A DNA stretch of 64,000 nt from Vampirovibrionales bacterium (GCA_044358835.1 JBIKNF010000002.1:9909-73908); one strand, 5' to 3'. Positions 6,297-55,574 are shown, counted from the first letter of the stretch. Numbers and translations are program-made. Notes: a model not told the origin generated them from the letters alone.

Positions 6297-6308
6297 ACGT
6301 CTCCTTAC

Positions 6309-38006: not shown

Positions 38007-38336
38007 GTGCCTGATTCACCCAAAAACCCAAACCCTTCTTCACCTGAACAAACGGCGGACTTGTCGGATCTCCCTTCCCCGCCGGATTTAAGCAAGCGAA
38101 ATGACGCTTCTTCAGAACAAGAAGGAGAAAAAGGTTCACCCAAACCCATTTACCCTAGCACTTACCCACTTTCGCCACAAGCACTCGCTGAACGTTTGCA
38201 GTCGTGGGTGAAAAATCCTCAAGATCCCTTTGACAGGTTAAATCGCTTGCCACAGGTGGATTTGCCTCCTGAAAACATCGCTTACCAAAGTCCCTTTTTA
38301 TTTTACAAAGGCGCCACCCTGAAACCCCCCATGTAA
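38007..38336 (+). CDS. Hypothetical small Pro/Ser-rich protein (GTG start)
   Basis: 109 aa with a biased composition. It is kept because of an upstream RBS-like aaggaaag and because it sits in an ORFan cluster. Confidence 0.35.
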   Translation: MPDSPKNPNPSSPEQTADLSDLPSPPDLSKRNDASSEQEGEKGSPKPIYPSTYPLSPQALAERLQSWVKNPQDPFDRLNRLPQVDLPPENIAYQSPFLFYKGATLKPPM

Positions 38337-38345
38337 TAGGTATAG

Positions 38346-38370
38346 TATAGATAAAATACTATACGGACTG
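38346..38370 (+). repeat. Copy of the recurring intergenic motif (TATAGATAAAA...CGGACTG, with a 7 nt insertion) inside a 9 bp palindrome gtatagtat/atactatac
   Basis: Compared by eye with the sites at 39885, 42766 and 51582. Confidence 0.5.
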
Positions 38371-38377
38371 CCGTTTT

Positions 38378-39802
38378 TTACGGTCGAGGTTTTGCATTGT
38401 TTGCGTGGGGGCGAAAATCTGCCCCGTTGTAGTCAAAGCGTTGTTTCGTAAGGGGTTTTAGGCGAATGTCGAAAGCCAACATAAATGAATCGCCTAGGAA
38501 TCGGGCAAAACCGTTAAATGGCGAGGGCACCAGCGAAGTGACAAATTGCATCAGGGTTGCAAAACCTCCATTGGCCAGCGTGGCGTACGTTTCATTAAAC
38601 AGGTTATGCAAAAACCAAATAAACCCTTTGGCGGGATTTAAACACTGGGCAATGTCAAACATCGAACGTAAGGCCATCCCATCAACGTCATGCCATACTT
38701 TTAACAGCATGCCTAAATCTTTATGGGCATATAAATCAAAGAAGGTTTTATACAGCGCCAAGCGAACGGCCGTTTGCTTTTCATGACGAGAAAGCAGGTG
38801 TAAGTATTCTTTAAAGGTGGCTTCGTTTTGCTGGAGCAAAGGCAAGGGCGTTGGCAAGTGCTGATTCTTTTCAGTAATGCCTTCGTTTAGTCGCTTAATA
38901 TGCCGTATAAAATCCTGCCAATGGCTCAATTTAAGATCTTCCATATGGCCTTTGGGATCGGTTCTAAAGTAAAGATCTTTGGCTTTTGAAAGGGCTTTGG
39001 CTTTGGCATCCAACACGGCGCCAAAAACGGGGATATTACTGATCCAACTATCGACTTGATCTAACGTTCCGCGTTTGCCGTCGACTTTTGGGACGAAGGC
39101 CATAAACAGGGGGGTACTGCTTACCCAACGAACAGGGGCAAAATGAAGTAGACTGTTAATGCCACGGGCTAAAAAGGGCATGTCTTTTTTTTGTTGAAAG
39201 TGAAAGGCGAGCATGGCCTTGGCTTGTTGATCCGGTGTAAGATGCCGAGCGTTTTGAACGCGGTGTTGATAGGTGCTTAGCGCCTTTTGCATTAAGGCCT
39301 GTTGTTTTTTACCCTGTTCGTAGGGTTTAACCGCGTCAAACAAGCCCAACCAATGCCCGCCCAAGTGATTGACTTGCTTTAAGAAGTATTCATACTTACT
39401 GCGGTACTTTTCTTTTCCCTTAATGACGGTGGTGCCTAGTTCAGCGTAGCCTTGTTCATCTAGCAGTAGGCCTGAAAAATCGGCGTTGTTTAAATTCATC
39501 AGTAGTGTTGAGGTCACTGAAGTTGTGGGGGGGTGGTGGGTGAGGTCTTTCATCAATGCTTTGGCCAGTAAGCCACCGCCATAGCTAATGCCCAGGCCAC
39601 CTACTACTAAAGGCCATGACATCACATTATAAACGCTGGCGCCAGACGCCGTAGCCAGCCCAAAAGGCACCCCAAACTTTAGTAAAGTCGCCGTAAGAAG
39701 CTTGCTTTGCTGAGCCATGTTTTTGGGATTAAAGCCACTGCGTTGCAACGCCAAACGCGGCGAAGTGTTGAAAGAAGGTGGCGTTGAAGAAATTTTATAC
39801 AT
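38378..39802 (-). CDS. Hypothetical membrane protein (ORFan)
   Basis: 474 aa with an N-terminal Gly-rich hydrophobic segment LATASGASVYNVMSWPLVVGGLGISYGGGLLAKA and further hydrophobic stretches. Confidence 0.55.
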   Translation of the reverse strand: MYKISSTPPSFNTSPRLALQRSGFNPKNMAQQSKLLTATLLKFGVPFGLATASGASVYNVMSWPLVVGGLGISYGGGLLAKALMKDLTHHPPTTSVTSTLLMNLNNADFSGLLLDEQGYAELGTTVIKGKEKYRSKYEYFLKQVNHLGGHWLGLFDAVKPYEQGKKQQALMQKALSTYQHRVQNARHLTPDQQAKAMLAFHFQQKKDMPFLARGINSLLHFAPVRWVSSTPLFMAFVPKVDGKRGTLDQVDSWISNIPVFGAVLDAKAKALSKAKDLYFRTDPKGHMEDLKLSHWQDFIRHIKRLNEGITEKNQHLPTPLPLLQQNEATFKEYLHLLSRHEKQTAVRLALYKTFFDLYAHKDLGMLLKVWHDVDGMALRSMFDIAQCLNPAKGFIWFLHNLFNETYATLANGGFATLMQFVTSLVPSPFNGFARFLGDSFMLAFDIRLKPLTKQRFDYNGADFRPHANNAKPRP

Positions 39803-39884
39803 AAAACGTGTTTATTGTGCCTGAAAGTAACGGTCAATACAAGGGGACTCATGGGCATAAAGGCATGAACATAAATGGGTGTGC

Positions 39885-39901
39885 TATAGATAAAACGGTC
39901 T
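39885..39901 (+). repeat. Recurring intergenic motif TATAGATAAAACGGTCT, 83 bp upstream of the start codon of 38378..39802
   Basis: Read directly. Confidence 0.6.
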
Positions 39902-40052
39902 GTAATCTGCAAAAAAGAAGTTTAAACCTATTGTAATCAAATGTAACAAAACAAGCACTTACTAAAGCCTCGTGTTTTTATTAGTTTGAGCCTTACATAC
40001 TAAAATTGCTTAGAGACAAACCATATATTCGACATAGAGAGGAACAACTTAC

Positions 40053-41090
40053 ATGAATAACACCACGAGAGTGTTGCCGTTTGATTTTGAACGCTATTTT
40101 TATGGACAAACAAACACTTCAGATTCCAATTACAACGCCACTTCAATTCCCCAAACACCTTACTGGGGTAAAACATTGAATACTTCTAAAAAAAATACGT
40201 CTGTCCCTTCTTTCGAACCATCCAATGAAACGAAAAAATGGGGGATGATGCTTGCCCTTTTTGGTAAAAATAAGACTTTAAAAACACCGAGTCTTCCAAA
40301 GGCTTCAGCAGCAGTGGTTAAACCCGCTGTTTCTAAAAAGGATGAAGACCTCTTAAGCTTACCTCTTTTGGGAGGGGACTTTATTTCAACGCCTGTGGTT
40401 ATGAAACCTAAGAATCCTGCTAAGCCTAAACTTCCTAAAAACGATGTTACCCTTCCTATTTTTGGGGGAGGAGACCTAAGTACACCGAAACCAACCGGCC
40501 CATTCTTGAGCCCTTCATTAAATGACCTTTTTCAGACGCTTACCTTTAAAGGCACCGTAGCAACGGGGCAACGTTCAGGGTACTGGGGTGACCCTCATGT
40601 GCTTGATGCCGAAAGTGCTAATAATCATTTTATCGTCACTGGTCCGGGTACTTATAACTTGTTAAAAGACAAAAACATTGCCCTTTCCGCTGAACATAAA
40701 AAATATGATCGTTGGGCTATTGAAGTGACCAATCAAATTAATCTCGCCTTAGGTACTTCTAACGTGGTATTTAATGCTTACGGAACACCGACCCTTAACG
40801 GTCAAGCCTTGGAACAAGGTAAGCTGATGACCTTACCTGATGGGTCTAGTGTCAATTGGAACGGAACGACCTTAAGTGTGAAGAATGCCAATTTTGGCGA
40901 ATATAATTTAGATGTGACTCGTCAACAAGCTGGCGGTGGAGTCAATTACCTAGACACCTGGATTAACAGCACGTACAAAGGCGTCTTTTCAGACGGCATT
41001 CTACCCACCGGTATTTTAGGTGAAGGCTTTGACATGGACAACCTCGTTCGTACCAAGTTAAACTTTGGCCTTGAAACGTACAAAGTCTAA
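40053..41090 (+). CDS. Hypothetical protein with a GDPHV motif, resembling the metal-ion-inducible autocleavage (MIIA/DUF1521) domain of T3SS effectors such as NopE1
   Basis: 345 aa. The N-terminal half is S/T/K/P-rich. The C-terminal domain contains SGYWGDPHVLDAESANNHF. Confidence 0.5.
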   Translation: MNNTTRVLPFDFERYFYGQTNTSDSNYNATSIPQTPYWGKTLNTSKKNTSVPSFEPSNETKKWGMMLALFGKNKTLKTPSLPKASAAVVKPAVSKKDEDLLSLPLLGGDFISTPVVMKPKNPAKPKLPKNDVTLPIFGGGDLSTPKPTGPFLSPSLNDLFQTLTFKGTVATGQRSGYWGDPHVLDAESANNHFIVTGPGTYNLLKDKNIALSAEHKKYDRWAIEVTNQINLALGTSNVVFNAYGTPTLNGQALEQGKLMTLPDGSSVNWNGTTLSVKNANFGEYNLDVTRQQAGGGVNYLDTWINSTYKGVFSDGILPTGILGEGFDMDNLVRTKLNFGLETYKV

Positions 41091-41131
41091 ACGTGCTTGG
41101 CTTTGCAATTTAGTATAAATCTGTTACAGTA

Positions 41132-42331
41132 GTGGGCATGGAAACATTCTATTCCCACTACTTTGATTATGCGGCCACCACCCCTGTGCATCCTGAGGTG
41201 TTAGAAGCCATGCTTCCTTTTTTAGGGGGGCATTTTGCCAATGCCCATAGTCCGCATCACGCAGGGCAAGCGGCTAAAAAAGCGGTAGAAACGGCTCGCT
41301 CGCAAATCGCCACTTACTTGAATGTGAATCCTTCAGAATTGATTTTTACCAGTGGCGGGACTGAAAGTAACAATCTAGGAATTATGGGGGTTATGCGTGC
41401 CTTGAAAGTCCAAGGCGAACGTCGAGGCCTCATCGTTTCTAGTACCGAACATAGTGCCGTGCTGGAAGCGGCTCGCTACATGGCTCGTTATGAAGGCGTT
41501 CCTTTGTTGGAAGTGAACCCCAATAGCCAAGGCATTATTGTATGTGACGCCTTAGAAGAGGCCTTACAATCGCAACCCACCGCGTTGGTGTCCATTATGC
41601 ATGCCAATAACGAAACAGGGGCGTTGAATGATATTCAAGCCCTTTCTGCACTAACGCATCGTTATCAGGCGTTTTTTCATACGGATGCTGTTCAAAGTCT
41701 AGGCAAAGTTTCCCTTGATTTAACCCAGAACTTGCCTGCGGTGGATTACCTAACCGCCACCGCACACAAGATTTACGGCCCTAAGGGGGTTGGGCTTTTC
41801 TTTAGTCGTAAGATCGCCTTCAAGCCTCACCCCGTGATTATGGGCGGGGGGCAAGAAAACGGCTTTCGAGGGGGGACGCTCAATACACCCGCTATTGTTG
41901 GTTTTGGCAAGGCGGTAGAACTTTTAAAAACGCATGAAGTAGAACGTCAAGCTCACTTAAAAGACTTAACCGCTTTTTTAATTCAGGGGATTCAAAATCT
42001 CAATACCCATGGGCTAAGCAAAGGGAAACTTCATTTAAACACGCCTTTAGAAGAAGACAAGCGAGTCCCAGGGATTGTGAACGTTTCGGTTGAAGGGGTG
42101 AGCGGTGATAAAATGGTGATGCAACTGGACATGCAAAACATCGCTGTTTCAAGTGGTTCAGCCTGCCATGCGGATCAACTTTCGCCCAGCCATGTGGTTT
42201 TGGCACAAGGTGGGAATGAAGCCTTGGCAAAATCTACCTTACGCATGAGTTTAGGGCAGTATAGTACTATAGATGGGGTAAACGATTTGCTGAATATTTT
42301 AGCCGTTCGTTTGGCACGTTGGCATGGGTAG
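41132..42331 (+). CDS. Cysteine desulfurase (IscS/NifS class V aminotransferase)
   Basis: FDYAATTPV, SGGTESNN, PLP-Lys region ATAHKIYGPKGVG, and the catalytic Cys loop SSGSACHA. Confidence 0.85.
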   Translation: MGMETFYSHYFDYAATTPVHPEVLEAMLPFLGGHFANAHSPHHAGQAAKKAVETARSQIATYLNVNPSELIFTSGGTESNNLGIMGVMRALKVQGERRGLIVSSTEHSAVLEAARYMARYEGVPLLEVNPNSQGIIVCDALEEALQSQPTALVSIMHANNETGALNDIQALSALTHRYQAFFHTDAVQSLGKVSLDLTQNLPAVDYLTATAHKIYGPKGVGLFFSRKIAFKPHPVIMGGGQENGFRGGTLNTPAIVGFGKAVELLKTHEVERQAHLKDLTAFLIQGIQNLNTHGLSKGKLHLNTPLEEDKRVPGIVNVSVEGVSGDKMVMQLDMQNIAVSSGSACHADQLSPSHVVLAQGGNEALAKSTLRMSLGQYSTIDGVNDLLNILAVRLARWHG

Positions 42332-42420
42332 ACCACGTTTTTCTTGACAGGTCGTGAGTATTCTACTACAATAGTCTTACGTGAGGCGTCTTACTGTGTA
42401 AAGTCAAGGAGGAATAGGCC

Positions 42421-42750
42421 ATGGGTTTAGCGACTGCGTCTTTTATGAATCAATTTTCCATGATGCAAGCCATGAATGCACAGTACAGCTTAATGACGGG
42501 TGCTCAAAGTTTGATGGCGCTCAGCAATCAAGCCAGCCAAGTGGCCATGGCAAACCCCACCGCGATTGAAAATGGATACGGCCCAGGTGCTTATATGACG
42601 AATCTCTTTCAAAGCGAACGGGCTTTACTGTTAAACCAATCTCGTCAACAAACGAACTTAAAAATGTATGAAGCCATGCAGGAATCTTCCAAAAAACTGG
42701 CCGACAAAAAAGCCAGTGAAGTGGGCCGATATTTAGATGTCACGGGCTAG
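42421..42750 (+). CDS. Hypothetical small Q/M/N/A-rich protein
   Basis: 109 aa, with the RBS aaggaggaa 8 nt upstream of the ATG. No motif recognised. Confidence 0.45.
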   Translation: MGLATASFMNQFSMMQAMNAQYSLMTGAQSLMALSNQASQVAMANPTAIENGYGPGAYMTNLFQSERALLLNQSRQQTNLKMYEAMQESSKKLADKKASEVGRYLDVTG

Positions 42751-42765
42751 TGTATAGTATTGGCT

Positions 42766-42779
42766 AGATAAAACGGTCT
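42766..42779 (+). repeat. Recurring intergenic motif TAGATAAAACGGTCT, 16 nt after the stop of 42421..42750
   Basis: Read directly. Confidence 0.6.
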
Positions 42780-42873
42780 AGGGTCTCTTCGTTGTTGCGA
42801 CGATTTTGCTTGCTTATGTACTTTTGTGCTCACGCCCGCACAAAAAACCCAAGGTTCCTAGTATAGCTTCATC

Positions 42874-42896
42874 GCCTGTTTCATCTTTCGAACACT
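42874..42896 (+). repeat. 23 nt direct repeat copy 1 (gcctgtttcatctttcgaacact)
   Basis: Matches 44984..45006 with 1 mismatch. Confidence 0.7.
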
Positions 42897-42920
42897 ATTT
42901 TGTGAAAAGACGTGATAAAG

Positions 42921-42955
42921 AAAGCCTCTTTGTTGAATTTCAGCAAAGAGGCTTT
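42921..42955. terminator. Perfect 12 bp inverted repeat (aaagcctctttg / caaagaggcttt). Likely a bidirectional terminator between convergent genes.
   Basis: Read directly. The loop is 11 nt. Confidence 0.5.
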
Positions 42956-42975
42956 AGGTTTTGATGCTGCCCTAT

Positions 42976-44634
42976 TTAAAAATCAAGTTCACGCATAAGT
43001 GATTCTATTTCAGCGGGAGCCAGTTCCTGAGTTTGATCATTTAAATACAAGGCTTCTTGAAATAAGGGTTTGGCTAAATGCACTTGGTCTAGCTTTATCA
43101 ATGTGCGTCCCAAATTAAAGCGAGCCATTGCATAAGTGGCATCTAAGCGTTGGGCTTCTTCAAAATACTTACGTGCTTCCTTAAAGTCTTGCCAAACATC
43201 CAAGTACAGTACCCCTAAGTTATTTAAGGCAATGGGGTTTTGTTTGTTCAGAAAAATAGCCTTTTTATAGGATTTTTCCGCTTCTTGGTGGCGCCCTGCT
43301 TGCCAGTACAGGTAGCCTAAAAATCCGTAGACTTCTGCATTTTCTGGTTGAAAACGTAGGATTTTTTGATACACATCTACCGCTTCATCATAGCGTTCGG
43401 CTTTGCAATGGGCTTCTGCCAAACTAAACAAATCGTTGATGTTCGCAGGTTCAAGTTCTTGAGCCAATTGCAAGCAGGCAAAGGCATGATCAGTATCCCC
43501 CTTATGCGCTTCGTAAATGCGCGCGAGTTGACGAGACACTTGTGCTGTCCACAAGGGGTCAATCCCAAAGGTGATGGCGGTTTTATACGCTTCAATACAT
43601 CCGTCAATGTCATCCATTGATTTTAAGACTTCACCCATGTGGTAGTAACTTTTGGCGTGATGAGGCATCGTGTTTAAGGCGACTCTTAAATGATATAACG
43701 CCTTGGTGAAGGCCCCATGATTTTGAAGGATTTTTGCCAATTCAAAGTGTAAGTCTCCTTCATTGGGGTGTCGTGCAATGCGGGCTTCCATGACACGAAT
43801 GGCTTCGTCAATTTCGTTGGCATCTAGCAAAGCGCTTACTTCATCTTGCTCGCTTGAAGGAGACTGTTTAGGAAACGAGTGAGTTTCAAACGCATCAGTC
43901 AACGCTTCAAAAAAGGGAGCATGTTCCTTGTGTTCAAATCCAGAAGCCAATCTCTCGTCAAAGTCTTTTGTATACGTCTTGGAATGAACCCCTGTGTGAT
44001 GCCCGTTCACCGATTCTTTGAATAAAGTCGTCTTAATACGTTGAGAAGTCCCCAAGCGGTTATACCCCAGTAGGTTGAGCAGGGGTTGAATGCTTTCTGC
44101 AAGTAAGAGCAAAAAGCTGTGTTGTAAGACGCGAAGGCTTAAGAGATTTTCTTGTAAGGCCCATGTCGTCACGAGCTGACGTGTATGACTATTAAACACA
44201 GGGGCTAACGCTAACGCGTGCTGAGCAGAGGTTTGAGCAGGAGCCTTTAAGCCACATTCCCACTGAAAAAAGGCCAAAAAGTGCCACGCTTCAGCACATT
44301 GTGGATCTTCTTCCACCAATCGCTGTAAGGTGCCTAAGCCTTCCATCAACACCATGGTTCCAGTCAGCCATGTGGCCCACGTATAACGCGCTTGGTGTAA
44401 GGTGCTTTCTAATAGTCGTTGGCCTTGATTGTTGTAAAACCCCAGCAACGCATCTAAGTCTTGCACAGACGCTTGTTTAAGCAGTCTGCCCCACACTTGA
44501 TTCGCCTGCGCTTCAGAAAGTATTGTAAAGACAGATGAAAACCCATGAACATTGAGTGAAGTCGAGACCCGAGAGGGAGAAGACGATTTCAACGCGTTGC
44601 GTTGGGCATGAAAAGAATGCTGAGGAAGATTCAT
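42976..44634 (-). CDS. TPR-repeat protein
   Basis: 552 aa with multiple TPR-like units (AEVYGFLGYLYWQAGRHQEAEKSYKKAIFLNKQN, ALNNLGVLYLD...). Confidence 0.75.
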   Translation of the reverse strand: MNLPQHSFHAQRNALKSSSPSRVSTSLNVHGFSSVFTILSEAQANQVWGRLLKQASVQDLDALLGFYNNQGQRLLESTLHQARYTWATWLTGTMVLMEGLGTLQRLVEEDPQCAEAWHFLAFFQWECGLKAPAQTSAQHALALAPVFNSHTRQLVTTWALQENLLSLRVLQHSFLLLLAESIQPLLNLLGYNRLGTSQRIKTTLFKESVNGHHTGVHSKTYTKDFDERLASGFEHKEHAPFFEALTDAFETHSFPKQSPSSEQDEVSALLDANEIDEAIRVMEARIARHPNEGDLHFELAKILQNHGAFTKALYHLRVALNTMPHHAKSYYHMGEVLKSMDDIDGCIEAYKTAITFGIDPLWTAQVSRQLARIYEAHKGDTDHAFACLQLAQELEPANINDLFSLAEAHCKAERYDEAVDVYQKILRFQPENAEVYGFLGYLYWQAGRHQEAEKSYKKAIFLNKQNPIALNNLGVLYLDVWQDFKEARKYFEEAQRLDATYAMARFNLGRTLIKLDQVHLAKPLFQEALYLNDQTQELAPAEIESLMRELDF

Positions 44635-44983
44635 GTGAAGGATTTCCTTTAAGTCTTGCCAGCCGTGGGCGAGGCAAAGAAGCAGGTAATATAAAGATAT
44701 TGCCTACAAAGTGAATCCATCCACTAGTGTGAGGTGTTGAAGGTAAACGCAAGTTTTCCGTCACTTGCGGTGAAGTATGCACTCGTTATCGCGTATCCAC
44801 GTTTTCTAGGTGATACAAAGCGCGTTGGTGAGTATATTGACTTCACAAAGAAGGTTTCGGAAGGAACCCCCTCACACTAAAGTAGCGTCCTTAATCTGGA
44901 GGAGTCCTTAAACGATGAGCCAATGAGAGGTGAAGGGTTTGTTTGAGTGTTTGCTTTTTCAAAACGCCTTTTTCACGCCAAAG

Positions 44984-45006
44984 GCCTGTTTCATCTTTTG
45001 AACACT
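44984..45006 (+). repeat. 23 nt direct repeat copy 2 (gcctgtttcatcttttgaacact)
   Basis: Matches 42874..42896. Confidence 0.7.
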
Positions 45007-45103
45007 CTAGATCGGTTGATTCCACTGTTACAAAACTTCATAACCAATCAAAATCGCTAGACACCCCTTTATTAGGTGCTATACTATTTGTATCAAAATA
45101 ACC

Positions 45104-45730
45104 ATGAGGCTACTTTTCATGTTACCTACACTTTCTTCAGGCTTTTCACCCATTACCCAACGCCAAGGCCTTGTGCTGATGAAGAACATTCCAGAAGAGG
45201 ATTTGAGCACGGTTTTAGACGCCACCAAGAAATCTATACTCACTTCTGAATCAGAACCTTACCAACCTGAAGCAAACGATTTAAGAAACAAAAGTTCCAC
45301 GCAACGCTACTTGCATAAAAAACATGTGATTTACCAACTGGTGCAGGCGTCTAAAACCAGCGACACCTTTACCATGGCGCTTCTTTCGGTGCCCACGCAC
45401 GTCAACGAAGAAAAAAGTCACGACATTGAAGTCAACGCTCGTAAGAAGGAAAATGTTTTACTCAGTAATTTAAAAGCCCAACTTGAAGGCAAGCACCTGT
45501 TGCAACATTACATTTCAAGTGACGGTACATTGAATAATCTGTATTACAAGAATTCTTCCCCTATTGATTTTAAGACGGGAGCGGAATACATGAAGAATGA
45601 AAAGCATCAGCGCTTGGTGGATGTATTGGAAGATCCGAGTTATGATTTGGCGCTTATTTCTAAGAAAGAAGATCGACTCTTTTTCCCCATTGGGCATGAG
45701 CCTGCCGATTTATTGAATCACCTTAATTAA
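45104..45730 (+). CDS. Hypothetical protein (ORFan), about 42% GC
   Basis: 208 aa. No motif recognised. Confidence 0.45.
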   Translation: MRLLFMLPTLSSGFSPITQRQGLVLMKNIPEEDLSTVLDATKKSILTSESEPYQPEANDLRNKSSTQRYLHKKHVIYQLVQASKTSDTFTMALLSVPTHVNEEKSHDIEVNARKKENVLLSNLKAQLEGKHLLQHYISSDGTLNNLYYKNSSPIDFKTGAEYMKNEKHQRLVDVLEDPSYDLALISKKEDRLFFPIGHEPADLLNHLN

Positions 45731-45739
45731 GCTTGTTTT

Positions 45740-46480
45740 GTGTGTTGTATGAATGATTCCCCCTTCCCCCGATGCATCGCGTGCTTTGCCAGTTCAGTGG
45801 ACGGCAAAATCAGCGCCCCCCCCCAGCCCAGCGATCCCAACGCTTGGGTCAAGCTCGGCACCCCCCGCGATCTTCAGCGCCTTTTTCACCTGCGTGATTC
45901 TGCCGATGTACTCTGCTTTGGGGCGTCTACCTTTAGGGCGTGGCCTAGTGTGCGTCGTGGGTTGCGGCATCAGGCAAACACGTCTTTAGCACCGCCAGTG
46001 CCTGTCTTGTTCACCCAGTCGTGGGCGTTGGATTGGCAGGCCCCCTGTTTTAGCGAATGGCACACCTACCGCGATTCATGGCCCCCTTTCTTTGTGGCAT
46101 CCACCCAAGCACCCCCAGCATCACTTCCTTCAACATTGCGGGAGTTCCTTCAGCCCATTCATTTGGATGCGTCCCACTCGCCCGCACAACAGCTCCACGC
46201 CGTTAAAACCGCCGTCAACCCCAGCCTTATAAACCCCCACACCGCCACCTGGATGCTCGAAGGCGGGGGGCAGCTGTTTGACTTTTTTCTACACGCCCAC
46301 GCGGTGGATGAATTACATTTAACCCTCACTCCCCAGTTGATTGGAGGCACAAACACGCCTGCTTTGGTAGGGGGTACTGGCTTTTCGCCAGAATCGTGGG
46401 CCACCGTTTCTTGGCGAATGGTGGAACATCACCCGCCGGAACTTTTTTTGGTAGGTGAATTGCAATACCCCACGACTTGA
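45740..46480 (+). CDS. RibD C-terminal (reductase) domain / DHFR-like protein on a high-GC segment
   Basis: CIACFASSVDGKISAP and MLEGGGQLFDFFLHAHAVDELHLTLTPQLIGG match RibD_C signatures. Local GC is about 58%. A C9 homopolymer lies at 45816-45824. Confidence 0.55.
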   Translation: MCCMNDSPFPRCIACFASSVDGKISAPPQPSDPNAWVKLGTPRDLQRLFHLRDSADVLCFGASTFRAWPSVRRGLRHQANTSLAPPVPVLFTQSWALDWQAPCFSEWHTYRDSWPPFFVASTQAPPASLPSTLREFLQPIHLDASHSPAQQLHAVKTAVNPSLINPHTATWMLEGGGQLFDFFLHAHAVDELHLTLTPQLIGGTNTPALVGGTGFSPESWATVSWRMVEHHPPELFLVGELQYPTT

Positions 46481-46568
46481 CACATCAACTTTTGCCGTTG
46501 TGTTCTTGTCTTCTTTCACTTCTTTGCTATAATAGCATGCATACACTAGTAAAAAGGACTCGCCTTCT

Positions 46569-47354
46569 ATGATATTTCATCGTTTGTTTTTAGTACTTGC
46601 CTTGGTGTACACGGCAGGTGTGTGTCTTGCCCCTGCGCTTGTGCAGGCTGAAGAATACGGCCCGTTTTTACCCCCTTCTGTGGTGAAGGAAAAGCAAGTG
46701 GCTAAGCAAAAAGCCACCCCAGCTGAACCTAGTAAGGGTAAGGCTTCTAGTACGGGTGAAAAAGTCATCAACAACTTAAGCACCTTGTTTAAGCCCACCC
46801 CTGTTTCACCAGAACCCAAAACGCTGAATGCGCCTGTAGAACGCGCCCCCTTTATTTCTACCACTGCCCCTAATTTGCCCGAAGTCCCGCCCTTGGTGGA
46901 AGATGATCCCCTGCCCAAGTTGCCTGCCCACACCCGAGTGGACAATCCCACCAATAAAATGGGCTTGGCCTTTGCCGCAGAAGAATTAAACAAGGTGATG
47001 GATCTTCAAAAAAAAGGCCAAACCGTGCAAGCTGTCGTTCTTTCTAAAGATTTAGACGCCTGGTTGATTGACGCCACTGAAACGCATATTGAACTGTACC
47101 AAGTGCTCACCCGTGTGCCTTCGGCTCGTGTGCAAGCGGCGTTTGAAAAAAAGCTTGGGCTTGAATTTGCCAAATTACGAGACCGTAACCTGTTGGCGCT
47201 TGCGCAGTTGTATCGGGATTTGGGGCAAGACAGAAAGGCTGTTCGCCCTTTGGTGCAGTTGATTCAGTCGCAAAGTCGCACAGAATTGGGTTTGCAAGCC
47301 TACAAACTCTTGCAAGACATGGGCTTTACTGAAGAGCTTTCGCTCACCAATTAG
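46569..47354 (+). CDS. Hypothetical secreted protein
   Basis: 261 aa with the signal peptide MIFHRLFLVLALVYTAGVCLAPALVQA. Confidence 0.5.
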   Translation: MIFHRLFLVLALVYTAGVCLAPALVQAEEYGPFLPPSVVKEKQVAKQKATPAEPSKGKASSTGEKVINNLSTLFKPTPVSPEPKTLNAPVERAPFISTTAPNLPEVPPLVEDDPLPKLPAHTRVDNPTNKMGLAFAAEELNKVMDLQKKGQTVQAVVLSKDLDAWLIDATETHIELYQVLTRVPSARVQAAFEKKLGLEFAKLRDRNLLALAQLYRDLGQDRKAVRPLVQLIQSQSRTELGLQAYKLLQDMGFTEELSLTN

Positions 47355-47368
47355 GATTTTCCCCACCC

Positions 47369-48079
47369 ATGACGCCACAGCCCCCTCGTGAAACCCTTCA
47401 TTTTTACTTTTTGACGCTGTTCCCCGATGCCATTCACGCTTACCTCGATAGTAGCCTGATGAAGCGCGCCATTGAAAAAGGCCTTTTTCAAGTGACGGTG
47501 CTAAATATTCGGGACTTTACCACGAGCGCCCACCACAAAGTGGACGACACCCCCTACGGCGGGGGGGCAGGCATGGTGCTGATGTGCCAACCCGTGTTGG
47601 ATGCCTTTCGTTCCATTGAAGGTGATTTACGTCAAGGACGCAGCAAAGTCTTGATGACCAGCCCCGCTGGAGCCGTTTTTCAACATAAAACGGCCAAAGC
47701 TTTTGCCGAAACCGCCTTAGATGTCGTCTTTTTTTGTGGGCATTATGAAGGCTTTGACGCGCGTTTGCTGGAATTGATTCCGGGGATTGAGGAAGTGAGC
47801 GTGGGCGATTTTGTGTTGACAGGAGGCGAATTGCCTGCTTTGGCGATGTTGGATGCCGTGGCGCGTTTTATTCCACAAGTGGTGAAAGAAGCGTCGAGCG
47901 TGGAAAATGATTCGTTTTATAATGGCTTGCTTGATTTTCCGCATTATACAAAACCTGCGGTGTTTGAAGGGGTGGCGGTGCCTGCGGTGTTGTTAAGTGG
48001 CAACCATGCCGCCATTGACGCGTGGCGCCAGAACGAAGCCCTAAAAAAAACCCAGCGCGTGCGCCCTGATTTGTTGTAA
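47369..48079 (+). CDS. trmD: tRNA (guanine37-N1)-methyltransferase
   Basis: YGGGAGMVLMCQPVLDAF, the trefoil-knot SAM site GHYEGFDAR and SVGDFVLTGGELPA. Confidence 0.92.
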   Translation: MTPQPPRETLHFYFLTLFPDAIHAYLDSSLMKRAIEKGLFQVTVLNIRDFTTSAHHKVDDTPYGGGAGMVLMCQPVLDAFRSIEGDLRQGRSKVLMTSPAGAVFQHKTAKAFAETALDVVFFCGHYEGFDARLLELIPGIEEVSVGDFVLTGGELPALAMLDAVARFIPQVVKEASSVENDSFYNGLLDFPHYTKPAVFEGVAVPAVLLSGNHAAIDAWRQNEALKKTQRVRPDLL

Positions 48080-48146
48080 ACCCGTGCAATAAGCAAGGGG
48101 CGTTTGAAGATTCAAACGCCCCTCGGTATTTTGGTAAAAAGTCTTT

Positions 48147-49088
48147 CTAGTCGGTCTGGAATAATGGTTTAGTGCTATTAGTAGCGGGTATCTTGTATTT
48201 TTTGAAATCTAAACCTTCGATTTTGAAATTAGGATCGAATACGTTTAATAGGTTTGGCGTTTTCAATGCTTTGGCATAGGGGTTAGCGTTTTGTTCGGGC
48301 TTCTTAGTTTTTTCAAGATGCTTTTTAATAGCGGTCTCGTATTTTGCTATAGCGCGTTGTGCTTTTTGAGCATTTTTAAAGGTTTTGCCTTCAGTAACAC
48401 CTTTTATTGGAGCTTTGACGCTATAGCCTGTTTCGGAATCATACGTCACGCTGATGTTATAGGCTGGATTCTCTGGAAACGTTACAACGTCTGTAGCTTG
48501 ACCTGCAATTAGCGTTTTACCCATAAATGTAGTGGCGAATTTAGTGGCTTTAGGGTCTAAGAATCTAGAGGCAGATTCTGAAATAGGGACTGAAAAACGG
48601 TTGTCTGTATCATCGTTTGAGGCTGATGCTGGTTGTTCACCAGGACGAGAAAGTTTAGCACCTTTAATCGCGGAGTTCGCAGCGACAAACTTTCTATCAC
48701 TAAAACGTAACGCTTCTTCTTCCCAAGCTGTAATAGTGCTTTCGATTCTTGTTTTATCATTAGCGCTAATTGTTCCATCTTCATTTGTATTAATCTCTAA
48801 ACGCTCGTTGAAGTTAGCTCTGTTCCATAATACGAGTTTTTTCCCATCCGTACTACTTTTAAGCATAATATCATGAAAGTTTTCATCGGCATGATTTTTT
48901 CCGCTTGACGTAATATAGTTCCAAGACCGTTCTTTTGGGGTTCCGTTTTTATCTTTAAAGTCCGCTATAGAAGAGTAATTGCTACGAGTATTGAAATCGC
49001 GCAAACGAACTGTAGAACCATCTAGCTTAATTGGGGTGCCATGTAAGTTCAGTGTTTTGGTAGTAGAAGTATTTGTTTTAGTCATCAT
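48147..49088 (-). CDS. Hypothetical protein (ORFan) on a low-GC islet
   Basis: 313 aa with no TM and no motif. GC is about 38-40%. Confidence 0.5.
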   Translation of the reverse strand: MMTKTNTSTTKTLNLHGTPIKLDGSTVRLRDFNTRSNYSSIADFKDKNGTPKERSWNYITSSGKNHADENFHDIMLKSSTDGKKLVLWNRANFNERLEINTNEDGTISANDKTRIESTITAWEEEALRFSDRKFVAANSAIKGAKLSRPGEQPASASNDDTDNRFSVPISESASRFLDPKATKFATTFMGKTLIAGQATDVVTFPENPAYNISVTYDSETGYSVKAPIKGVTEGKTFKNAQKAQRAIAKYETAIKKHLEKTKKPEQNANPYAKALKTPNLLNVFDPNFKIEGLDFKKYKIPATNSTKPLFQTD

Positions 49089-49295
49089 AATATCATATCC
49101 TTTTTAATTTCATCAGGGGGGGTAAGGGGGTAGGGGTAACACACACAGGGAATCGGTTCTTGAGAAGAACGTCATTCTGCTGTGTCTTAATAAAAACAAT
49201 TCAGCACGAAAAATGATGCATTCGTAACATTTATTTACAAAAACAAGCACCCCCCTTAGGCTCAGCAAGGGGGGGATTCGTTCTGTTCGGCTGGC

Positions 49296-49880
49296 TTATG
49301 GCAAGAAGGGGTGCTTGCCTTCAGGTGGATGCGTCCAAATGGCTTGGTTGATGTTGATTCGTTGAAAGGGTTTGGCACTGCCAAAGGGGGTTACTTGGCT
49401 AGAAATGGGGTGATTCTTCGGTGGGGAGGGTGTTTTTATGGATCGGGGTTTTGGCGGGGTTTTGGCGTCTTGTTTCAATGGCGGACGTTGATACTGAGGC
49501 AACCACGCCTTACCTTGCAAGGCTTTTACGTACAGCGGGGTTATTTTCACTTGTGAAGGGGGCGGCGGTTGCGCTTCAAAGGAAGTTAAATCCTGCCACG
49601 ACTTACCAGCGTTCAGCTGCACAATTGCGTTTTGCATGGCGCTACATTGCGGTGGGGTAAAAAATACGCCGTCCTTTTGAATGGCCTTGCTGAGGTAATT
49701 GCCTGAAGTATGAGGCTGTTCCCCTGAAAAAAAGCCCAAACGACTGGCCAATCGCAATACCAAGTAAGTCGGTACATTTAACTGATGCGCCACCACCCGC
49801 AACGGTATTTCGACCTGAGCCGTTCGCCATGATGTGGAGGGAGGTATTGGAGGGGCTTCACGCGTTGTGGCTTGCATCAT
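49296..49880 (-). CDS. Hypothetical Pro-rich protein
   Basis: 194 aa. The C-terminal half is PPPP/PKP-rich. Confidence 0.4.
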   Translation of the reverse strand: MMQATTREAPPIPPSTSWRTAQVEIPLRVVAHQLNVPTYLVLRLASRLGFFSGEQPHTSGNYLSKAIQKDGVFFTPPQCSAMQNAIVQLNAGKSWQDLTSFEAQPPPPSQVKITPLYVKALQGKAWLPQYQRPPLKQDAKTPPKPRSIKTPSPPKNHPISSQVTPFGSAKPFQRININQAIWTHPPEGKHPFLP

Positions 49881-49986
49881 GTTCCTTACTGGCGGGATTT
49901 TAGAATGTTTGCTTCTTTTATTGTATGATGTTTTTAAAATTTGGCATACAGGGCCTAGGCAAATTGTAACAAAGGTAACACCTTAC

Positions 49987-51465
49987 ATGAAGACACCGAT
50001 AAAAGGGCAAAATTACATCAACGGCCACTGGCAAGACGCCCAGTCTGGTGCTTGCTTTGAAAACCGTAGCCCCAACCAACCGCAAGATCTCATCGGGGTG
50101 TTTCCTGCGTCTACCAGTGAAGATGTGGATCAAGCCGTTCAATCGGCCCAACGCGCCTTTCAGCAATGGAAGGCGACGCCTGCGCCTCAGCGCGCGAAAG
50201 TGTTGCTCAAAGTCGCCCAATTACTCGAACGTGACAAGCCCACGTTGACCCAAGAAATGACCCGAGAAATGGGGAAAAGCCTCATTGAAGCCGGCGGAGA
50301 CATTCAAGAAGCCATTGATATGGCGTACTTTGTGGCAGGCGAAGGGCGAAGGTTGTATGGGCAAACCACGCCGTCTGAATTACCGCACAAATGGGCGATG
50401 ACGATGCGTCAGCCTGTGGGCGTTTGTGGCTTGATTACCTCGTGGAACTTCCCAATTGCCGTACCCAGCTGGAAGATTTTACCCTGTTTACTGGCGGGCA
50501 ACACCATTGTGTTTAAACCGGCGGAAGAGGCTCCCTTAATGGCACAACGTTTTGTAGAACTGTTTGAAGAAGCCGGCTTGCCTAAAGGGGTCTTAAACTT
50601 GGTGCAAGGCCCAGGGGAAACGACCGGTCAAGCCGTGGTGAATCATCCTGACATCAGGCTGATTAGTTTTACAGGTTCTAGTGAAGCGGGGGCGATGATT
50701 GCGGCACAATGTGGATCGCAACTCAAGCGAGTCGCCCTTGAGCTCGGCGGAAAAAATGCGTGTATCGTTATGGAAGACGCCGATTTAGCACTCGCCGCAC
50801 AAGGCATTGCCTGGGGAGCCTTTGGTACCAGCGGTCAACGATGCACCGCCACCAGTCGCCTGCTGGTGCATCATTCAGTAAAAAAACGCTTGCTCGATTT
50901 ACTGCTTAAAGAAACCGAAAAACTAGTCGTTGGCAATACCCTTGAAGGATCGGATATTGGACCAATTATCAATCCGACACAGCTTAAGCGTGTGTTGGAC
51001 TACATCGCCATTGCCCAAGCCGAAGGAGCCACGCTCTTATGTGGGGGGCATCCGATTGAATTGGACGGTTACTTTGTGGCTCCCACGATTTTGGACGGGG
51101 TCACGCCCACCATGCGAATCGCGCAAGAAGAGGTGTTTGGTCCTGTGCTTGCCGTCATGGATTTCAACACGCTAGAAGAAGCCATTACAATTGCTAATGG
51201 GGTAGAATACGGGTTGTCTTCCGCGATATTTACCACGAATATGAGCTCCGCCTTTCAAGCCGTCGAACAACTGGAAGCGGGGATTACTTACGTGAACGCC
51301 CCTAGTATTGGGGCGGAAGTTCACTTGCCTTTTGGAGGCGTGAAGAAAACGGGCAATGGGCATCGAGAAGCGGCAAGCCAAGCCTTTGACGTGTTTACGG
51401 AATGGAAGACCGTGTATATTGACTATAGCGGTCAACTTCAAAAGGCTCAGATTGACAATAATTGA
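49987..51465 (+). CDS. NAD(P)-dependent aldehyde dehydrogenase
   Basis: Catalytic Glu in ELGGKNA, catalytic Cys in GQRCTA, and the NAD-binding motif GSSEAG. The start was chosen at ATG 49987 (MKTPIKGQNYINGHW) to avoid the upstream overlap. Confidence 0.88.
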   Translation: MKTPIKGQNYINGHWQDAQSGACFENRSPNQPQDLIGVFPASTSEDVDQAVQSAQRAFQQWKATPAPQRAKVLLKVAQLLERDKPTLTQEMTREMGKSLIEAGGDIQEAIDMAYFVAGEGRRLYGQTTPSELPHKWAMTMRQPVGVCGLITSWNFPIAVPSWKILPCLLAGNTIVFKPAEEAPLMAQRFVELFEEAGLPKGVLNLVQGPGETTGQAVVNHPDIRLISFTGSSEAGAMIAAQCGSQLKRVALELGGKNACIVMEDADLALAAQGIAWGAFGTSGQRCTATSRLLVHHSVKKRLLDLLLKETEKLVVGNTLEGSDIGPIINPTQLKRVLDYIAIAQAEGATLLCGGHPIELDGYFVAPTILDGVTPTMRIAQEEVFGPVLAVMDFNTLEEAITIANGVEYGLSSAIFTTNMSSAFQAVEQLEAGITYVNAPSIGAEVHLPFGGVKKTGNGHREAASQAFDVFTEWKTVYIDYSGQLQKAQIDNN

Positions 51466-51581
51466 GGTTCGATAGATAAACAGGCGATGAGGCTATTCTA
51501 GCAGCCTAGATTTTTTGTGCGGGCGTGTACATAGACGTACAGAACCAAGCAAAAAAGTCGTAGCGACAACGAAGAGACCAT

Positions 51582-51597
51582 AGACCGTTTTATATAG
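51582..51597 (-). repeat. Recurring intergenic motif in reverse orientation (revcomp CTATATAAAACGGTCT), about 55-95 bp upstream of 51651..53144
   Basis: Read directly. Confidence 0.55.
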
Positions 51598-51650
51598 CGG
51601 AGACTATAATTGAAAAATAGATACATTTTGTAACACATTACCCACGTCGT

Positions 51651-53207: not shown

Positions 53208-54116
53208 ATGTCTACGCTTCCCACCCCTAATGGCCTACCCTTTCAAGACGTCCTGCTTCGCTTACAACAGTTTTGGGCCGAACAAGGATGCGTGATTCAA
53301 CAGCCCTTTGATGTTGAAAAAGGCGCCAGCACCATGAATCCTGCCACCTTCCTACGAGTGCTGGGCCCAGAGCCGTGGAACTTAGCCAATGTGGATCCGT
53401 GCCGTCGCCCCACAGACGGTCGTTACGGGCAGAACCCCAACCGCTTGCAACACTACTTTCAATTTCAAGTGATTATGAAGCCGTCGCCGTCGAACATTCA
53501 AGAATTGTACTTGGAAAGCTTGAAAGTTCTGGGGATTGTGCCTGAAGAGCATGACGTGCGTTTTGTGGAAGACAACTGGGAATCGCCGACGCTTGGGGCG
53601 TGGGGTGTGGGCTGGGAAGTCTGGCTCGATGGCATGGAAATTACGCAGTTTACTTACTTTCAGCAGGCAGGCGGCATTGATGTGAAGCCCTGTGCGGTGG
53701 AAATCACTTACGGATGCGAGCGTATTGCGATGTATCTGCAAAATGTGGACAGCGTCTACGACCTGCGTTGGAACGAGCAATTGAGCTACGGCGACCTTTA
53801 CATGCAAAATGAAATTGAAAGTAGCACCTACAACTTTGAAGTCAGTAGCCGTGAGCGTTTGACGCAACGTTACGATCTCTACGCTGCGGAAGCCGTCGAT
53901 TGCCTTGAAGCCAAGCTGGTGATGCCTGCGTATGAGCATGTGTTGAAATGTTCGCACACCTTTAACTTGATGGACGCCCGTGGGATGTTGAGCCGTGACG
54001 AGCGAACGAATTACATTTTGCGCATTCGCCGTATGGCGGAAGGCGTGGCAAAGGCGTATGTTGAACAGCGAGAAGCCTTGGGTTACCCGTTGTTGAAGCG
54101 GGCATCGGTGGTTTAG
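53208..54116 (+). CDS. glyQ: Glycine--tRNA ligase alpha subunit (stand-alone, no glyS adjacent)
   Basis: [35 protein letters not shown]. 302 aa, colinear with E. coli GlyQ. Confidence 0.93.
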
Positions 54117-55525: not shown

Positions 55526-55574
55526 AGGGTCGTCCTTCTTGCGTTGGGGGCTAGCCCTAGTTTAGCATGAAAAC

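What the first reader, a model, noticed from the sequence alone, without database searches (positions are those of the whole stretch)
38346..51597. Recurring 15-17 nt intergenic motif TA(T)AGATAAAACGGTCT at four sites flanking ORFan genes
Near-identical copies occur at 39885-39901 (TATAGATAAAACGGTCT), 42766-42779 (TAGATAAAACGGTCT), 51582-51597 (reverse complement CTATATAAAACGGTCT) and 38346-38370 (TATAGATAAAA-tactata-CGGACTG, carrying a 7 nt insertion and embedded in a 9 bp palindrome). Two copies lie 55-95 bp upstream of the start codons of 38378..39802 and 51651..53144. In both cases the motif has the same orientation relative to the gene, and both genes encode about 480-500 aa ORFan membrane proteins. 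The other two copies sit 10-16 nt after the stops of two 109 aa ORFs, 38007..38336 and 42421..42750. A motif this long is unlikely to recur four times in 64 kb by chance. It could be an operator for a dedicated regulator, for example one tied to effector expression. It could also be the end of a small mobile or recombination element. One pair of copies directly flanks the gene 38378..39802.
Basis: seen in the sequence. Interest (0 to 1): 0.55.

Follow-up and report, generated by a model that had tools for sequence, protein, structure and literature searches.

The report
Terminal repeat of a small transposon
The recurring 15-base motif is part of the inverted end-repeat of a roughly 150-base non-coding mobile element (a MITE) scattered through genomes of Vampirovibrionales bacteria, so it marks ordinary selfish DNA and is not a dedicated gene switch.

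Summary
Three of the four motif copies are real and far above chance. The fourth (38346-38370) is weak and varies between strains.

Two copies (42765-42779 +, 51582-51596 -) are positions 13-27 of the left terminal inverted repeat of a ~150-nt element. That element is present in full at 42753-42900 (+) and 51467-51608 (-). The copy at 39887-39901 is a solo 25-nt piece of the same terminal repeat. A matching right-end fragment lies at 44980-45009.

The element is a MITE:
- A scan of 185,579 species genomes put 65 of 83 pattern hits in six related MAGs, five labelled Vampirovibrionales. The window is syntenic with these MAGs.
- 58 copies give a 151-nt consensus (TATAGTATCCGCTATATAAAACGGTCT...GAACACTATA) with ~30-nt imperfect inverted ends.
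- Two nested insertions show a TA target duplication.
- None of 61 full copies interrupts a long ORF.

TA duplication plus inverted ends point to mobilisation in trans by an IS630/Tc1-mariner-type transposase. No such gene was found, so this step is inferred.

The closest analogue is the Neisseria Correia element (same size, TA target, TATAGT termini, no known transposase), but the window element is not a member of that family.

The regulator-operator idea is not supported. One copy does offer a promoter-like and a terminator-like site to its neighbouring genes.

The parts
42753..42900 (+). Full copy of the ~150-nt MITE (family A). Right terminal repeat is about 42870-42900. It lies directly after the stop of ORF 42421..42750.
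   Evidence: The nhmmer profile of 58 copies matches model positions 1-149 with E 2.3e-37. It is an inverted repeat with 51467-51608. It is present and near-identical in all nine strain contigs that cover it.
51467..51608 (-). Second copy of the same MITE, in the opposite orientation. The left terminal repeat (with the motif at 51582-51596) faces gene 51651..53144. The right end abuts the stop of the aldehyde dehydrogenase gene (51465) and has lost about 10 terminal bases.
   Evidence: nhmmer matches model positions 1-144 with E 3e-43. Strain L001 keeps the complete right end, and there the dehydrogenase ORF reads 8 codons into the element.
39882..39907 (+). Solo 25-nt fragment of the left terminal repeat (model positions 8-33), containing the exact 15-mer at 39887-39901. 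It has no element body on either side.
   Evidence: nhmmer E 0.032 in the window and a terminal-repeat-only profile E 0.83. The 15-mer is identical to the one at 42765. It is conserved in all strains, and in L007 another MITE is inserted at its TATA.
44980..45009 (+). Solo fragment of the right terminal repeat (model positions 121-150), GCCTGTTTCATCTTTTGAACACTCTA.
   Evidence: 22 of 23 bases match 42874-42896 (family D5). nhmmer E 0.67 and the terminal-repeat profile E 0.023.
38340..38370 (+). It is a short palindrome, GTATAGTA-TAGATAAAA-TACTATAC, made of element-terminus-like TATAGTA/TACTATA arms. It is doubtful as a relic and is not a scored member of the family.
   Evidence: Not detected by the family profile at E<=10. 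The 11 nt GTATAGTATAG are absent in strains L001 and L007. In L007 a second MITE type is inserted at TACTATA|CGG.
51581..51610 (+). Outward-facing sigma-70-like promoter match, TAGACC-18 nt-TATAAT. The first hexamer lies inside the reverse complement of the motif. The second spans the element terminus and flank. It sits 41 nt before ORF 51651..53144.
   Evidence: The consensus scan scores 10 of 12. This is a pattern match only. Among family copies the flank bases that complete the second hexamer are not enriched.
51490..51507 (+). Terminator-like hairpin AGGCTATTCTAGCAGCCT followed by AGATTTTTTG, formed by the reverse strand of the element core, 25 nt after the aldehyde dehydrogenase stop.
   Evidence: It is the only terminator-like site in 51000-52000. 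The hairpin (H3) and the T-run are part of the family consensus.

Best explanation
The motif is not an independent signal. [quoted passage not shown] This MITE is dispersed in genomes of Vampirovibrionales, non-photosynthetic relatives of cyanobacteria, to which the window's organism belongs.

The window holds two old, slightly decayed full copies (42753-42900 + and 51467-51608 -) and two solo end fragments (39882-39907 and 44980-45009).

Shown:
- A multi-copy family confined to this lineage.
- Inverted ends.
- TA target-site duplication.
- Strictly intergenic location.
- Nested insertions.
- No coding capacity.

Inferred:
- The element is moved in trans by an IS630/Tc1-mariner-type DDE transposase. 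The helix-turn-helix domain of such a transposase would bind the terminal repeat, so the 15-mer would be the core of the transposase-binding site.
- The terminal TAG/CTA next to the duplicated TA would be the cleavage site.
- The window copies (mutated duplication, missing terminus) are most likely immobile fossils.

Secondary and only pattern-based: the copy at 51467-51608 may have been co-opted. Its reverse strand offers a hairpin plus T-run behind the aldehyde dehydrogenase gene and a TAGACC-18-TATAAT promoter-like site in front of ORF 51651.

The confidence of 0.85 is for the statement that the motif is part of a MITE terminal repeat. For the inferred IS630/Tc1-mariner-type mobilisation alone I would give about 0.55.
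For: 1. Extent. The similarity between the two window sites runs ~150 nt, not 15.

2. Family. A scan of one genome per species (185,579 species) with TAKATAAAACGGTCTNNNNTCT gave 83 loci.
- 64 of the 80 loci listed lie in six MAGs: five 'Vampirovibrionales bacterium' and one labelled Gammaproteobacteria whose MITE-bearing loci are orthologous to theirs.
- L090 also carries the element.
- The rest are single hits in unrelated taxa.

3. Consensus. 58 copies align to a 151-nt consensus with sharp conservation boundaries at TATAGT...ACTATA. The profile finds the window copies at E 3e-43 and 2e-37. It gives 113 non-overlapping hits in the fetched loci, 68 of them full length.

4. Inverted ends. The left end is TATAGTATCCGCTATATAAAACGGTCTATGG. 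The reverse complement of the right end is TATAGTGTTCGATAGATGAAACAGGCTATG. 24 of 30 positions pair in most copies.

5. TA duplication.
- A copy nested in another copy (L030:2785-2933) shows a 2-nt overlap of its flanks against about 40 uninterrupted copies.
- A sister-family element nested in the left end of the L031 copy, compared with the uninterrupted orthologous copy in L075, also resolves only with TA.

6. Location. None of 61 full copies overlaps an ORF of 120 aa or more by over 30 nt. Ends often lie within a few bases of stop codons.

7. Presence and absence between species at orthologous sites: L075 filled versus L067 not. L088 has a copy between the orthologues of window genes 45104..45730 and 45740..46480, which are 10 nt apart in the window.

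8. Taxon. The window is syntenic at 50-90% amino-acid identity with five of these MAG loci.

9. The 15-mer occurs only inside elements in 449 kb of related DNA.

10. Established knowledge. IS630/Tc1/mariner elements insert almost exclusively at TA and duplicate it, and ISY100 transposase protects the whole 24-bp inverted repeat (PMC2170065).
Against: - No autonomous partner was found. There is no transposase-sized ORF between terminal-repeat pairs and no multi-copy protein family in the fetched MAG loci. No transposase domain was found among the 40 window ORFs scanned. Nothing but element pieces appeared in the 7 metagenome contigs that carry the terminal-repeat pattern. The assignment to IS630/Tc1-mariner therefore rests on the TA duplication and inverted ends alone.
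- No clean empty allele of either window copy was found. All nine strains carry the 42753 copy.
- The solo fragment at 39882-39907 is only marginally significant on its own (E 0.03). A stand-alone function for it cannot be excluded.
- Compensatory base changes in internal hairpins show some constraint on structure that a purely selfish, decaying repeat would not need.
- The fetched loci were selected by the motif itself, so copy statistics are biased towards this family.
Confidence: 0.85

Rival explanations
1. The motif is an operator or promoter element bound by a dedicated transcription factor that co-regulates the neighbouring ORFan genes.
For: - Two copies lie 54-83 nt upstream of ORFan genes in the same relative orientation.
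- The reverse complement of the motif contains a -35-like TAGACC that belongs to a 10-of-12 promoter match at 51581-51610.
Against: - In related genomes the 15-mer is found only inside the 150-nt repeat (66 of 67, the last being a split copy).
- Copies face gene stops (30 left ends, 17 right ends) as often as gene starts (18 and 25).
- The neighbouring proteins are unrelated.
- No promoter match exists at the 39887 copy.
- The flank bases that complete the -10 hexamer are not enriched across copies.
Confidence: 0.03
2. The ~150-nt unit is a family of small structured RNA genes, and the motif is the 5' part of the terminal stem of the transcript, not a transposon end.
For: - A TATAGT -10-like hexamer lies 6 nt upstream of the motif in both full copies.
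- The ends can pair.
- Internal hairpins keep pairing through changes on both sides. In H2, pair 72-79 is G-C in 48 copies and C-G in 37. In H4, pair 58-93 is T-A in 76 and G-C in 15, and pair 59-92 is G-C in 75 and A-T in 18.
Against: - There is no Rfam match even at E<=1.
- Folding energy is unremarkable, with z -1.46 and -1.27.
- RNAalifold gave no consensus structure on 97 copies.
- TA target duplications and copies nested inside copies are transposition signatures.
- Truncated copies and solo end fragments are common.
- Copies occur in either orientation relative to neighbours.
- The paired changes separate subfamilies, so they may reflect a few ancestral events.
Confidence: 0.06
3. The copies are transposon relics that the host has co-opted as a portable terminator and promoter cassette. 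This is compatible with the best explanation and concerns present function only.
For: - A terminator-like hairpin plus T-run lies at 51490-51507, 25 nt after the aldehyde dehydrogenase stop, and a promoter-like site at 51581-51610 lies before ORF 51651.
- The forward strand carries a hairpin plus T-run at 42789-42803.
- Element ends often lie within a few nt of stop codons, with a median of 5 nt for left ends facing stops.
- Correia and other bacterial MITEs are documented to supply promoters and processing sites (PMC10969869).
Against: - These are consensus matches only, with 4-5-bp stems.
- A separate strong 16-bp terminator hairpin already follows the 42753 copy at 42921-42955.
- Sister families replace the T-run stem by an unrelated sequence.
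- Closeness to stop codons may simply reflect insertion at TA.
Confidence: 0.25

Closest known systems
Correia repeat-enclosed elements (CREE / NEMIS) of Neisseria
   Same: - Non-coding and 104-157 bp long.
- ~26-nt terminal inverted repeats that begin TATAG[CT].
- TA target site.
- Dozens to hundreds of mostly intergenic copies.
- No transposase ever identified.
- Can supply promoters at their ends (PMC2649163; PMC10969869).
- The element here has the same TATAGT...ACTATA termini, the same size class, a TA duplication and an A-run followed by CGGT inside the terminal repeat.
   Different: - Beyond the first 6-7 bases the terminal repeats do not match. Correia is TATAG[CT]GGATTAACAAAAATCAGGAC; here it is TATAGTATCCGCTATATAAAACGGTCT.
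- The core is unrelated.
- The host is a different phylum.
- No IHF site or RNase III processing was tested here.
IS630 / Tc1-mariner insertion sequences (e.g. ISY100 of Synechocystis) and the MITEs derived from them
   Same: - Terminal inverted repeats of 24-30 bp.
- Near-exclusive insertion at TA with 2-bp duplication.
- The transposase binds the whole repeat through N-terminal helix-turn-helix motifs (PMC2170065).
- This is the mechanism proposed here.
   Different: - No transposase gene with these ends was found.
- No sequence comparison with any IS630-family end could be made.
- The link is by transposition signature, not by homology.
Cyanobacterial MITEs (e.g. Nezha; Microcystis and Anabaena MITEs)
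   Same: They are abundant short inverted-repeat elements in the sister lineage of the host (PMC10969869). Cyanobacteria are among the most MITE-rich bacteria (PMC11602168).
   Different: No sequence relation was tested. The surveys read do not mention Vampirovibrionales or Melainabacteria.

Membership tests
MITE (miniature inverted-repeat transposable element) | Short (about 50-800 bp) and without coding capacity | tested here: met
   The consensus is 151 nt. No ORF is possible. Window copies are 148 and 142 nt.
MITE (miniature inverted-repeat transposable element) | Terminal inverted repeats | tested here: met
   The imperfect inverted ends are ~30 nt. 24 of 30 positions pair in most copies. 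The reverse strand of each end matches the model of the other end (hits 3 and 6).
MITE (miniature inverted-repeat transposable element) | Target-site duplication | tested here: met
   TA is flanked on both sides in about 80-98% of copies. Two nested insertions resolve only as a 2-bp TA duplication.
MITE (miniature inverted-repeat transposable element) | Many dispersed copies at unrelated loci within a genome | tested here: met
   There are 17, 21, 9, 7, 6 and 4 loci with the exact 22-nt pattern in six MAGs, and 113 non-overlapping profile hits with different flanks.
MITE (miniature inverted-repeat transposable element) | Insertion polymorphism between related genomes | tested here: inconclusive
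   Between species, L075 is filled and L067 not (the junction is not clean), and L088 has a copy where the window has a 10-nt spacer. Within the window's species all nine strains share the 42753 copy.
MITE (miniature inverted-repeat transposable element) | A cognate autonomous element with the same ends | tested here: inconclusive
   None was found in the fetched MAG loci, in the window, or in 7 metagenome contigs. Whole MAGs could not be scanned, and IS copies are usually lost from short-read MAGs.
IS630/Tc1-mariner-mobilised element | Insertion at TA with 2-bp duplication | tested here: met
   The family property is taken from PMC2170065.
IS630/Tc1-mariner-mobilised element | Ends recognised by a DDE transposase of that family | not testable with these tools
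   No candidate transposase was identified. Testing needs complete genomes or binding assays.
Correia element (CREE) family | Terminal repeat matches TATAG[CT]GGATTAACAAAAATCAGGAC or its three variants with at most 3 mismatches (the search rule of PMC2649163) | tested here: not met
   Only the first 6-7 bases and an AAAAC-GG stretch agree (consensus against the patterns quoted).
Transcription-factor operator / regulon motif | Stand-alone copies at conserved positions upstream of a coherent gene set | tested here: not met
   66 of 67 occurrences in related DNA are inside the 150-nt repeat. There is no orientation or position rule. The neighbouring genes are unrelated.
Known structured RNA family (Rfam) | Match to a curated covariance model | tested here: not met
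   Only three tRNAs reach the gathering score in the window. Nothing reaches E<=1 in 38200-52000.

The most novel reading that the evidence does not exclude
The ~85-nt core of the element (TCTCTTCGTTGTCGCTACGA...CTAGGCTCCTAGAATAGCC) may be a selected functional module rather than passive cargo. Candidate functions are a structured RNA or DNA hairpin, or a two-way terminator. In the same genomes the core is carried between at least four or five unrelated pairs of terminal repeats, and its hairpins keep pairing through changes on both sides. That would make it a functional cassette spread by several transposition systems. A second, weaker reading follows from the Correia-like TATAGT termini plus TA duplication in a distant phylum. 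It suggests a widespread, still unidentified transposase type that also moves the Neisseria elements.
Probability: 0.15. Interest if true: 0.5.

Novelty: new member of a known kind. Interest (0 to 1): 0.22.

Why it matters
For annotation, the result removes a false lead. The motif should be masked as repeat DNA, not treated as a regulatory signal for ORFan or 'effector' genes.

For biology, it documents a MITE family, with sister families that share its core, in Vampirovibrionales. This is an uncultured-dominated lineage for which I found no description of such elements in the searchable literature.

Such repeats are useful as lineage markers. The 22-nt pattern picks out these genomes among 185,579 species, and it flags one MAG labelled Gammaproteobacteria as probably mislabelled.

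The repeats also explain assembly breaks. They may supply promoters and terminators to neighbouring genes, as Correia elements do.

Tried and rejected
- Paralogous small RNA genes. This was my first idea on seeing the 150-nt repeat with a TATAGT box. I rejected it as the main explanation after Rfam found nothing, folding z-scores were weak, and the family showed TA duplications, nesting and truncations. RNAalifold on 97 copies returned an empty structure, so hairpins were counted by hand.
- Segmental duplication of gene plus upstream region. Rejected because the flanking proteins are unrelated.
- Search for the autonomous partner. I looked for inverted 13-mers 0.7-3 kb apart, multi-copy ORFs, what lies beside solo terminal repeats in L025, L037, L075, L060 and L087, Pfam domains in 40 window ORFs, and a metagenome scan with a terminal-repeat-only pattern. 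No transposase turned up.
- The ~1-kb strain-specific insertion in L002/L003/L005. It was checked as a possible insertion sequence, but it lacks the element's terminal repeats. It carries two small ORFs that were not run against any protein library, so what it is remains open.
- Viral contigs. There were 5 pattern hits and none carries the element.
- Clean empty sites for the window copies. None was found among nine strains.
- Excision-footprint readings of TACTATA (38357-38363) and of the extra TA at 39885. I considered both and left them open, because the sequence arithmetic does not fit a simple TA model.
- A conserved sequence behind a solo terminal repeat in L075/L060. It was tested against Rfam with no match.

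Full report
**1. The observation**

- TATAGATAAAACGGTCT is at 39885-39901.
- TAGATAAAACGGTCT is at 42765-42779.
- Its reverse complement, with one mismatch, is at 51582-51596.

Allowing two mismatches, the window has three matches where shuffles give 0.11. No shuffle out of 100 reached three.

The fourth site, 38346-38370, needs a 7-nt insertion and further mismatches. It is not detected by a profile of the family. Part of it (GTATAGTATAG) is absent in two of seven strains of the same organism. I count it as doubtful.

**2.

Reading the flanks shows that the copies at 42765 and 51582 are the beginnings of a much longer repeat.
- 42753-42900 on the plus strand and 51467-51608 on the minus strand align over ~150 nt at 77-85% identity.
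- The far end of each repeat carries a degenerate inverted version of the motif. These are AAGATGAAACAGGCG (reverse complement of 42878-42892) and TAGATAAACAGGCG (51473-51486).
- A 23-nt piece of that far end recurs at 44984-45006, matching 22 of 23 bases.

The two ~480-aa ORFs give E 0.18, and the two 109-aa ORFs give no alignment.

**3. Where the repeat occurs**

I scanned one genome for each of 185,579 species with TAKATAAAACGGTCTNNNNTCT. This pattern fits all three good window copies. It returned 83 loci.
- Of the 80 loci listed, 64 lie in six MAGs. Five are named 'Vampirovibrionales bacterium' (17, 21, 9, 7 and 6 loci).
- The sixth is named Gammaproteobacteria (4 loci). Its MITE-bearing loci are orthologous to those of the other five, with flanks 84-94% identical.
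- L090 also carries the element.
- The remaining hits are singletons in unrelated taxa. My own estimate for a pattern of this information content in 596 Gb is about 35 chance hits.

The window shares syntenic blocks at 50-90% amino-acid identity with five of these MAG loci. Its organism therefore belongs to the same lineage. Nine metagenome contigs hold near-identical strains of it.

**4. Anatomy of the family**

Fifty-eight copies align to a 151-nt consensus. Conservation drops abruptly outside TATAGT...ACTATA:

TATAGTATCCGCTATATAAAACGGTCTATGGTCTCTTCGTTGTCGCTACGATTTTTTTGTTTGGTTATGTAGGTCTATCTACACGCCCGCACAAAAAAATCTAGGCTCCTAGAATAGCCTCATAGCCTGTTTCATCTATCGAACACTATAG

A profile built from this alignment gives the following.
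- The two window copies score E 3e-43 and 2.3e-37.
- 39882-39907 matches model positions 8-33 (E 0.03).
- 44980-45009 matches positions 121-150 (E 0.67).
- Across all fetched DNA there are 113 non-overlapping hits, 68 of them full length.

The two ends are imperfect inverted repeats of about 30 nt.

In 449 kb of related DNA, 66 of 67 occurrences of the 15-mer lie inside such elements. The last one is the split end of a copy that hosts a nested insertion.

**5. Evidence of transposition**

- Copies have different flanks at every locus.
- None of 61 full copies overlaps a long ORF.
- The outermost TA is present on both sides in most copies.
- A copy inserted into another copy (L030:2785-2933) can be compared with about 40 uninterrupted copies. 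Its left and right flanks overlap by exactly two bases, TA.
- In L031 a sister-family element sits inside the left end of a copy whose uninterrupted orthologue is in L075. The junctions again resolve only as a TA duplication.
- Orthologous sites differ between species. L075 has a copy where L067 has none. L088 has a copy between two genes that are 10 nt apart in the window.
- Truncated copies and solo end fragments are common.

These are the defining properties of a MITE.

**6. Mechanism**

The TA-specific 2-bp duplication together with 24-30-nt inverted ends is the signature of the IS630/Tc1/mariner superfamily. For the cyanobacterial member ISY100, the transposase alone performs excision and integration. 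It inserts almost exclusively at TA and protects the entire inverted repeat through N-terminal helix-turn-helix motifs (PMC2170065).

I therefore propose three things.
- The element is mobilised in trans by such a transposase.
- The 15-mer is the core of its binding site.
- The terminal TAG/CTA is the cleavage site.

All of this is inferred. I found no transposase gene between terminal-repeat pairs and no multi-copy ORF in the fetched MAG loci. No transposase domain was found among the 40 window ORFs scanned. Only element fragments appeared in the seven metagenome contigs matching a terminal-repeat-only pattern. Short-read MAGs typically lose insertion sequences, so their absence here is weak evidence.

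**7. State of the window copies**

Both look old.
- The 42753 copy ends ACTAT|TT instead of ACTA|TA.
- The 51467 copy has lost about ten terminal bases compared with strain L001. In L001 the aldehyde dehydrogenase ORF runs eight codons into the element.
- The 39882-39907 and 44980-45009 pieces are solo end fragments without an element body.

**8. Possible side effects on neighbouring genes**

On the plus strand, the 51467-51608 copy provides two sites.
- The only terminator-like site of the region: AGGCTATTCTAGCAGCCT followed by AGATTTTTTG, 25 nt after the dehydrogenase stop.
- A 10-of-12 promoter match, TAGACC-18-TATAAT. Its first hexamer lies in the reverse complement of the motif. Its second spans the element terminus.

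These are consensus matches only. Across the family, the flank bases that complete the second hexamer are not enriched. Correia and other bacterial MITEs are known to donate promoters in this way (PMC10969869).

**9. Rival readings**

- An operator for a dedicated regulator is contradicted.
- A family of structured RNA genes is disfavoured by the absence of any Rfam match, ordinary folding energies and the transposition signatures.
- Internal hairpins do keep pairing through changes on both sides between subfamilies. This leaves room for a structural constraint at the RNA or DNA level.

**10. Comparison with known systems**

The nearest analogue is the Neisseria Correia element.
- It is 104-157 bp long.
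- Its ~26-nt ends begin TATAG[CT].
- It has a TA target and no known transposase (PMC2649163).

The element here works like it and even shares the TATAGT terminus. It fails the sequence rule used to define Correia repeats, so it is not a member. I found no description of MITEs in Vampirovibrionales or Melainabacteria in the searchable literature.

**11. Unexplained extra**

Other repeats in the same MAGs share the ~85-nt core at high identity. They carry unrelated ends, for example ATACCAATTAAACGATTAAATAGCG, TATAGTGTTTTAAATAATTTCCCCTACAGTG and TATAGCCGAGTTTAGAGTTTCCTGTACAG. I could not decide whether the ends were swapped by recombination among nested copies or whether the core is itself under selection.

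**12. Verdict**

The 'mobile element end' reading is right and the 'operator' reading is not. The thing is a new family of a well-known kind of element. Interest is low to moderate.

Noticed in passing
L007:1010-1194 and L007:2713-2899 (sites equivalent to window 38363 and 39888): In one strain, two ~180-nt copies of a different MITE flank the 474-aa ORFan in inverted orientation. Its ends are TATAGAAGGCTCTGCAAAAG...CTTTTGCAGAGCCTTCTATA and its interior has GC-rich hairpins. Strains without them keep TATA, so the apparent duplication is 4 bp, unlike the TA of the main family.
   Followed up: partly
window 55570-55800: There is a cluster of five GC-rich REP-like hairpins (CCCTCTCC-loop-GGAGAGGG and variants) in the spacer between two minus-strand genes (54113..55525 and 55824..56774). 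It is about 90% identical over 75 nt to the interior of the second MITE type. Related pieces occur in several Vampirovibrionales MAG loci.
   Followed up: partly
L030, L031, L019, L066, L069, L086, L087, L090 and others: At least four or five repeat families share one conserved ~85-nt core but have unrelated terminal inverted repeats. Core hairpins keep pairing through changes on both sides between families.
   Followed up: partly
window 37808-37978: About 19 tandem, imperfect 9-nt T-rich units (TCTTTCGTT and variants) fill the spacer before ORF 38007..38336.
   Followed up: no
L002:13311-14336 (also L003 and L005); window 45730-45740: Some strains carry a ~1-kb insertion with two small ORFs (112 and 139 aa) between genes that are 10 nt apart in the window. 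The region lacks the MITE's terminal repeats, and the two ORFs were not run against any protein library. The orthologous spacer in L088 holds a related small ORF region and a MITE copy.
   Followed up: partly
L046, L052, L075, L080 (MAG JBEISK01): A MAG labelled Gammaproteobacteria carries the same MITE family. It has loci orthologous (84-94% nt in flanks) to Vampirovibrionales MAGs, so its label is probably wrong.
   Followed up: partly
L025:6043-6071 and L025:6933-6948: Two right-type terminal-repeat fragments in inverted orientation flank a single 280-aa gene that I did not identify (6068..6910, minus strand). Similarly, the window fragments at 39885 (+) and 45009 bracket a 5.1-kb block of four genes. 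This is probably coincidence or the remains of two decayed copies.
   Followed up: no
L075:7229-7400 and L060:5646-5820: A solo terminal-repeat fragment sits directly before a ~150-nt non-coding stretch that is conserved between two species (GCAGACGTCCAAGCACTAAATCCGAGCGGGTGAGCGAATTGCG...). It has no Rfam match at gathering score.
   Followed up: partly
L011, L024, L033, L091: Several of the unrelated single hits of the 22-nt pattern fall in the same conserved ~650-aa protein gene of Clostridia/Bacilli MAGs. They are therefore coding-sequence coincidences, not repeats.
   Followed up: no
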